From Octopus vulgaris (lineage: Eukaryota): a stretch of DNA of 64,000 nucleotides. The position numbers and the translations under genes were made by a program. Positions within the stretch are counted from its first letter, which is position 1. Every line of letters begins with the position of its first letter. Of this stretch, positions 9,681 through 9,877 are shown piece by piece. The stretch lies in assembly GCA_951406725.2 (NCBI GenBank), contig OX597815.1, forward strand, positions 11,780,001-11,844,000. Direction: 5' to 3'. The notes below the pieces were generated by a model. That model worked only from the letters and a program-made list of their open reading frames with translations. It had not been told where the DNA came from and ran no database searches.

Positions 9681-9681
<1 letters not shown>

Positions 9682-9875
9682 CGGGAAGCTTTATGAAAAT
9701 AAACAAAAGACGAAGGCATGTGGAATACAAACAAACAATTGTATTAGTATGGCGCTCAGGAATATAAATAAAACAAGTCTTTTACGTTTCGAGCCTACGC
9801 TCTTCAACAGAAAGATACACAGAAAAGAAACACAGAAAGAAACTAGGAGAGAAAAGAATGCGTGCAGAAGCTAGC

Positions 9876-9877
<2 letters not shown>
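9681..9877 (-). mobile_element. (TA)n-embedded short element carrying a hammerhead-like motif (PLE pseudo-LTR/retrozyme-like)
   Basis: Flanked by (TA)n on both sides; its end recurs at 42054-42113; related to 34431-34650 and 50640-50814. Confidence 0.7.
9778..9815 (-). ncRNA. Minimal type I hammerhead ribozyme-like motif (variant core)
   Basis: Minus strand TCTTT-CTGTTGA-A-GAGC(GTAG)GCTC-GAA-ACGT-A-AAAGA: 5-bp stem I, 4-bp stem II, palindromic ACGT stem III, GUA site; core reads CUGUUGA rather than CUGANGA. Confidence 0.6.

What the first reader, a model, noticed from the sequence alone, without database searches (positions are those of the whole stretch)
9681..9877. (TA)n-targeting short element with a minimal, probably dimer-dependent hammerhead and a non-canonical CUGUUGA core
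Seen (minus 9815-9778): TCTTT CTGTTGA A GAGC gtag GCTC GAA ACGT A AAAGA. Stems I and II are perfect, GAAA and a GUA site are present, and stem III is only the loopless palindrome ACGT, which could pair only between two copies. The U at core position 6 recurs at 50694 (CTGTCGA), so it looks like a family trait rather than decay. Established: Penelope-like elements and non-LTR retrozymes carry minimal type I hammerheads that cleave as dimers; A6 is normally conserved. Inference: a non-coding TA-targeted retroelement family with a variant ribozyme that standard hammerhead descriptors would miss. This is the best candidate for an undescribed system in the window.
Basis: partly seen in the sequence, partly recalled or inferred. 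Interest (0 to 1): 0.75.

Follow-up and report, generated by a model that had tools for sequence, protein, structure and literature searches.

The report
Penelope retrotransposon hammerhead with U6 core
This 197-base piece is the cut-off end of a young, abundant Penelope-type jumping gene, not a separate non-coding element; its one oddity is that the small self-cutting-RNA motif it carries, like about 24,000 related motifs in this genome, has U where A is normally required, a change that likely weakens cutting even though the motif's shape appears to be kept by selection.

Summary
The motif is there as described. The element is not a non-coding family. It is the 5'-truncated 3' end (pseudo-LTR) of a 4.5-kb Penelope-like retrotransposon of Neptune/Nematis type, with a 1,064-aa RT plus GIY-YIG ORF and tandem arrays. 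All 30 ORF-selected loci examined carry the motif downstream. Minimal dimer-type hammerheads and (TA)n bias are known for such elements. The new part is U6: 23,737 U6 motifs against 8,294 A6. Across five U6 subfamilies whose flanks differ at 71 of 146 columns, stems and loop differ at 0 of 19, and only hammerhead-free positions 7 and 17 vary. Covariation exists only between families. Copies do not preferentially start at the cleavage site (26 against controls of 18 and 44); they pile up about 80 nt upstream (316). The ribozyme is therefore probably attenuated and not needed to cut the template. I found no natural U6 in print, but Lunse 2017 was unreadable. The scan noted other core changes in Penelope hammerheads elsewhere, not this sequence. 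Cleavage is untested.

The parts
9681..9877 (-). 5'-truncated copy of the 3' end (pseudo-LTR plus tail) of a Penelope-like retrotransposon, subfamily with U6-U7 core and GUA site
9778..9815 (-). minimal type I hammerhead motif: stem I, core with U6 (9807), extra A, 4-bp stem II, GAAA, loopless ACGU palindrome, predicted cleavage after 9783
   Evidence: sequence; match to the published min-HHR layout; conservation
9681..9782 (-). about 100 nt from the predicted cleavage site to the fixed 3' end of the family
9651..9680 (.). (TA)n tract at the 3' junction
9878..9931 (.). (TA)n tract at the 5' junction; with the 3' tract it lies in the microsatellite middle of a SINE-like repeat (about 9428-10129) that the insertion splits
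   Evidence: self-comparison with the uninterrupted copy at 1885-2384
50690..50816 (+). old, decayed copy of a related subfamily, U6-C7 core at 50694 (end approximate, at the TA run)
42050..42113 (+). 64-bp 3' remnant of the same family between TA-rich tracts, without the hammerhead

Best explanation
The 197-bp unit is a 5'-truncated copy of the 3' end of a young protein-coding Penelope-like retrotransposon, likely inserted into a (TA)n tract by the element's own endonuclease and reverse transcriptase, and its hammerhead motif is the element's usual minimal one carrying a lineage-wide A6-to-U change that is predicted to weaken self-cleavage. Shown: identity with the pseudo-LTR of 4.5-kb RT-endonuclease units, fixed 3' end, variable 5' end, TA flanks, U6 in all sampled younger subfamilies, invariance of stems and core with free positions 7 and 17. 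Inferred: reverse transcription starts at a fixed internal site just before a short TA run of the element's own RNA, probably primed by a nicked (TA)n target; the many 205-217 nt copies are probably copies of the first ~210 nt of the transcript (start in the upstream pseudo-LTR) or a strong stop; the templates were mostly uncleaved. The hammerhead fold is probably kept as a slow, dimer- or protein-dependent ribozyme or as a protein-binding fold rather than as a fast cutter (about 0.6 for slow but real cleavage, 0.4 for none of consequence).
For: L028 has a GIY-YIG ORF upstream on the same strand. That protein finds 111 scored copies of 24,822 candidates at 99-100% identity without stops; 30 of 30 fetched loci carry the U6 motif 574-897 nt downstream. 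Four of five long regions fetched hold two or three head-to-tail pseudo-LTR copies about 4.47-4.53 kb apart, up to 99.7-99.8% identical. ORF of 1,064 aa with DKG, RT motifs, CX4CxxC linker, GIY-YIG-type motif; Pfam RVT_1 above cut-off, GIY-YIG E 0.005 below cut-off but above it in two homologues. TA at the 3' junction in 27 of 29 aligned loci chosen by 3' end only, at the 5' junction in 14 of 28 scorable; the element's own sequence continues with a short TA run after the end. Unbiased core sample, first 100 of 17,666: U6 96, other core positions 96-100, position 7 U43/A24/C22/G11 (counted by hand). Stems and loop 0 of 19 columns variable against 71 of 146 flank columns over five U6 subfamilies, Fisher p 1e-5. 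5' junction counts on the minus strand: cleavage site 26, controls 18 and 44, upstream site 316. Literature: mutations in the CUGA turn give low activity (PMC9901934, passages); natural A6C is slow in Mg and better in Mn (PMC3088659 section 8; PMC7151607 passages); a Poseidon hammerhead is protein-assisted and dispensable for insertion in vitro (PMC11167929 passages).
Against: No cleavage, RNA ends or protein binding were measured; the runs found are contigs of uncertain kind. Strict invariance of every catalytic position but one argues that catalysis may still matter, so 'weakened' may be wrong in vivo. Subfamilies were grouped by me from 3-12 loci each, found with patterns that fixed part of the motif, and T-rich flanks align poorly, so the contrast is probably overstated. 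Absence of 5' ends at the cleavage site does not exclude cleavage of a minority of RNAs or cleavage followed by ligation, and the count sees only junctions to TA. The rod fold that U6 permits is not a unique masking device: an A6 sister family hides the palindrome in another register (mean probability free 0.26 against 0.22). Neptune against Nematis was not tested on a tree.
Confidence: 0.8

Rival explanations
1. U6 is a fully functional natural hammerhead core: in the dimer or with the element's protein bound it cleaves well, and U6 was fixed because it lets the monomer fold into an inactive rod (G5-U6 pairing with A15.1-C15.2) that acts as an off switch.
For: All other core positions, both stems and the palindrome are invariant over five subfamilies; position 6 was mixed in the oldest subfamily (U77, C14, A8, G1 of the first 100 of 745) and U in all sampled younger ones; predicted G5-C15.2 pairing 0.98 in the U6-U7 subfamilies, mean 0.64 over 32 U6 against 0.03 over 30 A6 motifs, and 0.10-0.11 in the closest intact A6 relatives; protein-assisted cleavage has a precedent.
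Against: No excess of copies starting at the cleavage site; the active dimer is predicted 5.7-6.7 kcal/mol worse than two rods in the youngest subfamilies against 0.9 for the A6 relatives (nearest-neighbour model, no tertiary terms); position-6 changes are slow in published assays; A6 sister family also hides the palindrome.
Confidence: 0.25
2. The ~210-bp units are an independent non-autonomous SINE-like or retrozyme-like family that borrows the Penelope enzymes.
For: 12 of 29 aligned copies end within 205-217 nt of the 3' end and one 5' junction is about 7 to 18 times commoner than the control junctions; animal retrozymes are described as PLE derivatives (bioRxiv 2026.07.22.740005, abstract to methods).
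Against: Short and ORF-linked copies occur in the same subfamilies with the same diagnostic letters; 10 of 29 copies extend more than 400 nt into the 3' UTR, 5 of them into the endonuclease; the tandem unit is 4.5 kb, not 150-450 bp; no short tandem array among the loci examined.
Confidence: 0.07
3. The motif is a dead relic: U6 killed the ribozyme and the sequence is conserved for a DNA-level role (promoter or endonuclease signal) or simply hitch-hikes.
For: PLE pseudo-LTRs contain promoters (PMC6765202 passages); no covariation inside the U6 clade; the loop is as invariant as the stems; Naiads spread without canonical hammerheads (PMC8557442 passages).
Against: The only variable positions are 7 and 17, the two that the hammerhead leaves free, which a promoter model does not predict; sister families in the genome keep the pairs through changes on both sides.
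Confidence: 0.15

Closest known systems
Minimal hammerheads in pseudo-LTRs of metazoan Penelope-like elements (Cervera and de la Pena 2014, PMC4209133; parts 1-2 of 4 of the text and parts 1-2 of 3 of the supplement read)
   Same: [quoted passage not shown]
   Different: Every motif in the supplement's Figure S3 alignment as I could read it has A6 (found with an A6 descriptor, so biased); the only core variant described in the parts read is U3-A8.
Neptune/Nematis clades of endonuclease-positive PLEs (described in Craig et al. 2021, PMC8557442, passages)
   Same: Single ORF with RT then C-terminal GIY-YIG, CX2-5CxxC linker, partial tandems, inverted neighbouring copies, microsatellite bias proposed to depend on that linker.
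   Different: No reference sequences were available for a tree; closest database proteins are unnamed at 55-56% identity. Not a Naiad (endonuclease is C-terminal).
Natural A6C hammerhead of phage Bcep176 (PMC3088659 section 8; PMC7151607 passages)
   Same: Natural change at core position 6.
   Different: C rather than U, a single phage sequence with a full stem III, against about 24,000 copies in a succession of retrotransposon subfamilies; C6 also appears in the oldest subfamily here.
Animal non-LTR retrozymes (PMC7229834, passages; bioRxiv 2026.07.22.740005, part 1 of 5)
   Same: Non-coding stretch with a type I hammerhead, related to PLE pseudo-LTRs.
   Different: Retrozymes are 150-450 bp tandem repeats with canonical ribozymes giving circular RNA; here the tandem unit is the whole coding element and short copies are solitary.
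Lunse, Weinberg and Breaker 2017, small PLE hammerheads that cleave as dimers
   Same: Title-level match only (reference-list entry).
   Different: Text not held; whether it lists U6 variants is unknown to me.

Membership tests
Endonuclease-positive Penelope-like element | Single ORF with PLE-type RT (DKG motif, RT core) and GIY-YIG endonuclease | tested here: met
   GIY-YIG below Pfam cut-off in the query, above it in two homologues
Endonuclease-positive Penelope-like element | Partial head-to-tail tandems forming pseudo-LTRs; frequent 5' truncation; inverted neighbours | tested here: met
   inverted second copies in L007, L015, L045, L084/L085
Neptune/Nematis type | [quoted passage not shown] | tested here: met
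   motifs at residues 836 and 877 of 1,064; definition
Neptune clade specifically | RT phylogeny with reference Neptune elements | not tested
   no named reference proteins among the stored hits
Minimal PLE hammerhead | Helix I, helix II with G10.1-C11.1, extra nucleotide after A9, palindromic helix III remnant | tested here: met
Minimal PLE hammerhead | Core CUGANGA with A6 | tested here: not met
   U6 in 96 of the first 100 unbiased matches; hence a variant, not a canonical member
Minimal PLE hammerhead | Stem covariation | tested here: inconclusive
   7 of 9 pairs change on both sides in 19 hand-picked rows, 0 of 500 shuffles as high, but all from A6 families and only a few independent events; none among the 7 U6 rows
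Minimal PLE hammerhead | Self-cleavage as a dimer | not testable with these tools
   no assay; indirect genomic test negative
Non-LTR retrozyme | Short (150-450 bp) tandem repeats each with a hammerhead, no own ORF | tested here: not met
   tandem period about 4.5 kb with ORF; short copies solitary in the loci examined
Non-LTR retrozyme | Circular RNA product | not testable with these tools
   only contigs available; no joint listed, uninformative

The most novel reading that the evidence does not exclude
A natural U6 hammerhead, the dominant form in this genome, is a working ribozyme whose substitution was selected as a conformational off switch: the monomer locks into a rod and is opened only by dimerisation in tandem transcripts or by the element's own protein. 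The A6, C6 and U6 forms on one identical scaffold would be a ready-made natural series for asking what Penelope hammerheads are for, and would widen the hammerhead core consensus used in all descriptor searches.
Probability: 0.2. Interest if true: 0.7.

Novelty: new variant of a known kind. Interest (0 to 1): 0.42.

Why it matters
The role of the hammerheads found in nearly all canonical Penelope-like elements is unsettled: they cut slowly in vitro and one is dispensable for insertion. Here a lineage kept amplifying through at least five subfamilies, up to copies 99-100% identical with open ORFs, with a change at a position regarded as near-essential, while keeping everything else of the fold. 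That is a natural experiment separating 'fold needed' from 'fast cleavage needed'. Practically, descriptors that demand CUGANGA would miss about three quarters of the motifs of this layout in this genome (23,737 U6 and 1,080 C6/G6 against 8,294 A6). It is not a new class of element.

Tried and rejected
Rfam scan of the window: only microsatellite-driven chance matches among the listed rows. Folding energy as evidence for the motif: not significant. Stop-to-stop ORFs of 120 aa or more in the window: none resembles a PLE protein by eye, so the link to the ORF comes from other loci. Cleavage site as preferred 5' end: rejected against two controls; none of 29 aligned copies starts within 3 nt of it. 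U6-specific masking of the palindrome: not specific. Order of events A6 to U6: the 90-row tree needs 3 changes and has no reliable root; in the oldest subfamily A6, C6 and U6 copies do not form separate clusters (48 rows), so whether C6 and A6 there are source elements or decay is unresolved; their shares (14 and 8 in 100) look high for decay but I did not test that formally. Expression and RNA ends: no RNA holder listed; contigs only. Earlier findings by sequence: none. Literature for natural U6: searches found A6C but no A6U hammerhead; PMC11014351 and PMC10085705 (passages) gave nothing on it; an octopus repeat annotation (PMC13282606, passages) lists recently active Penelope families and has 0 occurrences of 'ribozyme' or 'hammerhead', its supplement unseen; the supplement of PMC8557442 was searched for a few terms only. 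PMC5785220 was an unrelated paper.

Full report
Observation. The motif is at minus 9815-9778 exactly as written, between two (TA)n tracts, and a decayed relative with U6-C7 starts at 50694. A third, 64-bp remnant without the motif lies at 42050-42113. The window copy splits a SINE-like repeat at its microsatellite middle: the uninterrupted copy at 1885-2384 matches 9428-9680 and 9878-10129, which suggests insertion into an existing TA tract. Rfam lists no hammerhead among 150 shown of 153 matches, and the fold is not unusually stable, so the case rests on comparison.

What the element is. The 197 bases find 40 scored of 358 candidate places in G000 at 90-100% identity. The 30 fetched share a fixed 3' end and differ at the 5' end. 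One, L028, continues upstream into an RT-thumb-GIY-YIG frame. That protein matches 111 scored of 24,822 candidate places at 99-100% identity with no stop, and 30 of 30 fetched carry the U6 motif downstream. Of five long regions, four hold two or three pseudo-LTR copies head to tail about 4.5 kb apart. [quoted passage not shown] By the definitions in PMC8557442 (passages) this is a canonical endonuclease-positive PLE of Neptune/Nematis type; I did not separate the two. Nearest database proteins are unnamed, 55-56% identical; named ones come from a shark, snails, corals and echinoderms (745 of 7,989 scored). The window copy belongs to a slightly older subfamily (GUA site) that is also ORF-linked (L096, 91% identity). 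The host looks octopus-like (recalled; an earlier scan note says the same).

How copies arise (inferred). Among 30 loci chosen only by the 3' end (first 30 of 5,819), 29 aligned: 27 have TA at the 3' junction, 14 of 28 scorable at the 5' junction; 10 are longer than 400 nt, 13 are 189-217 nt (12 within 205-217), 6 are shorter. In tandem units the element's own sequence continues with a short TA run after the fixed end, which could pair with a nicked TA target. Internal initiation is shown for a Poseidon element, there without homology to the target (PMC11167929 passages). The pile-up near 210 nt fits copies of the transcript's first segment or a strong stop; short copies occur in the same subfamilies as long ones, which argues against a separate SINE.

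The hammerhead. Layout equals the published minimal PLE hammerhead, and the Acropora Neptune example is very close; all motifs readable in that alignment have A6. Genome-wide, one pattern gives 23,737 U6, 8,294 A6 and 1,080 C6/G6 matches against controls of 33, 49 and 24. With stem II fixed and the 5' core free, the first 100 of 17,666 matches show U6 in 96, the other core positions at 96-100 and position 7 split 43/24/22/11 (hand count). Five U6 subfamilies, 1-10% diverged internally and 66-92% identical in flanks, differ at 0 of 19 stem and loop columns, at 71 of 146 flank columns, and within the motif only at positions 7 and 17 (small hand-made groups, part of the core fixed by the search). 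In contigs of four runs under four other organism labels no other letter reaches 3% at 9807 and depth peaks on the motif (one run shallow). Pair-keeping changes occur only between families: 7 of 9 pairs in 19 hand-picked rows (the window copy plus 18 of the 24 listed, one row misaligned), none among the 7 U6 rows. In the oldest subfamily position 6 is mixed, U77 C14 A8 G1 in the first 100 of 745 (hand count), without clustering on a tree; the direction and path of the change are therefore likely (A to U) but not shown.

Does it cut? Not tested. Against fast cutting: published position-6 and CUGA-turn changes are slow; U6 allows G5-U6 to pair with A15.1-C15.2, predicted at 0.98 in the U6-U7 subfamilies, making the active dimer 5.7-6.7 kcal/mol worse than two rods against 0.9 for the closest A6 relatives; copies start at the cleavage site no more often than at control sites (26 against 18 and 44 on the minus strand, where matches are not duplicated; 316 at the upstream site). 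For retained catalysis: every other catalytic position is kept, and the A6 sister family hides its palindrome equally well, so the rod is no proof of inactivity. Sequencing runs were uninformative.

Novelty. The element type, the minimal dimer-type hammerhead and the TA bias are known. A natural U6 core at this scale did not turn up in seven paper searches; the most relevant paper, Lunse et al. 2017, could not be read, and unseen supplements may bear on this. Earlier scan notes report other family-wide core changes in PLE hammerheads and a similar fixed start, none on this sequence; they are unchecked and not counted as support.

Noticed in passing
G000, (L099-L127): A sister PLE-end family with canonical A6, the same stem II, a 3-nt loop and a G-C/G-U instead of C-G fourth pair in stem I; further rarer hammerhead families with other stems (L116, L120).
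   Followed up: partly
G000, (for example C1:112553955): 9 of the first 100 C6/G6 matches are a recurring 25-nt motif with G at position 6 and a different stem, apparently another repeat family.
   Followed up: no
G000 L188-L201: C6 forms make up 14 of 100 in the oldest subfamily, the same change as the natural phage variant.
   Followed up: partly
L032-L061: The youngest subfamily has U at position 17 (GUU site) in 30 of 30 loci, which lengthens the palindrome to six bases; GUU is common in the published PLE list.
   Followed up: partly
family position about 210 nt from the 3' end (just upstream of window 9877): Strong hot spot of 5' ends about 80 nt upstream of the hammerhead core; candidate transcription start.
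   Followed up: partly
L031 4063-6360 (-): A truncated PLE copy sits at the 5' end of a 765-aa LINE-type reverse transcriptase frame, joined at a short TA run.
   Followed up: no
window 1885-2384, 11166-11588, 25050-25477, 37163-37540, 39075-40029 and others: Very abundant SINE-like repeat with a microsatellite middle; a second short repeat at 14581-14816, 17379-17608, 47186-47383, 60291-60705.
   Followed up: no
window 38623-39003 (+): 126-aa frame that looks by eye like the DNA-binding part of a Tc1-type transposase (recalled, not searched).
   Followed up: no
window 13554-14406: About 250 copies of TAA followed by about 35 of AAG.
   Followed up: no
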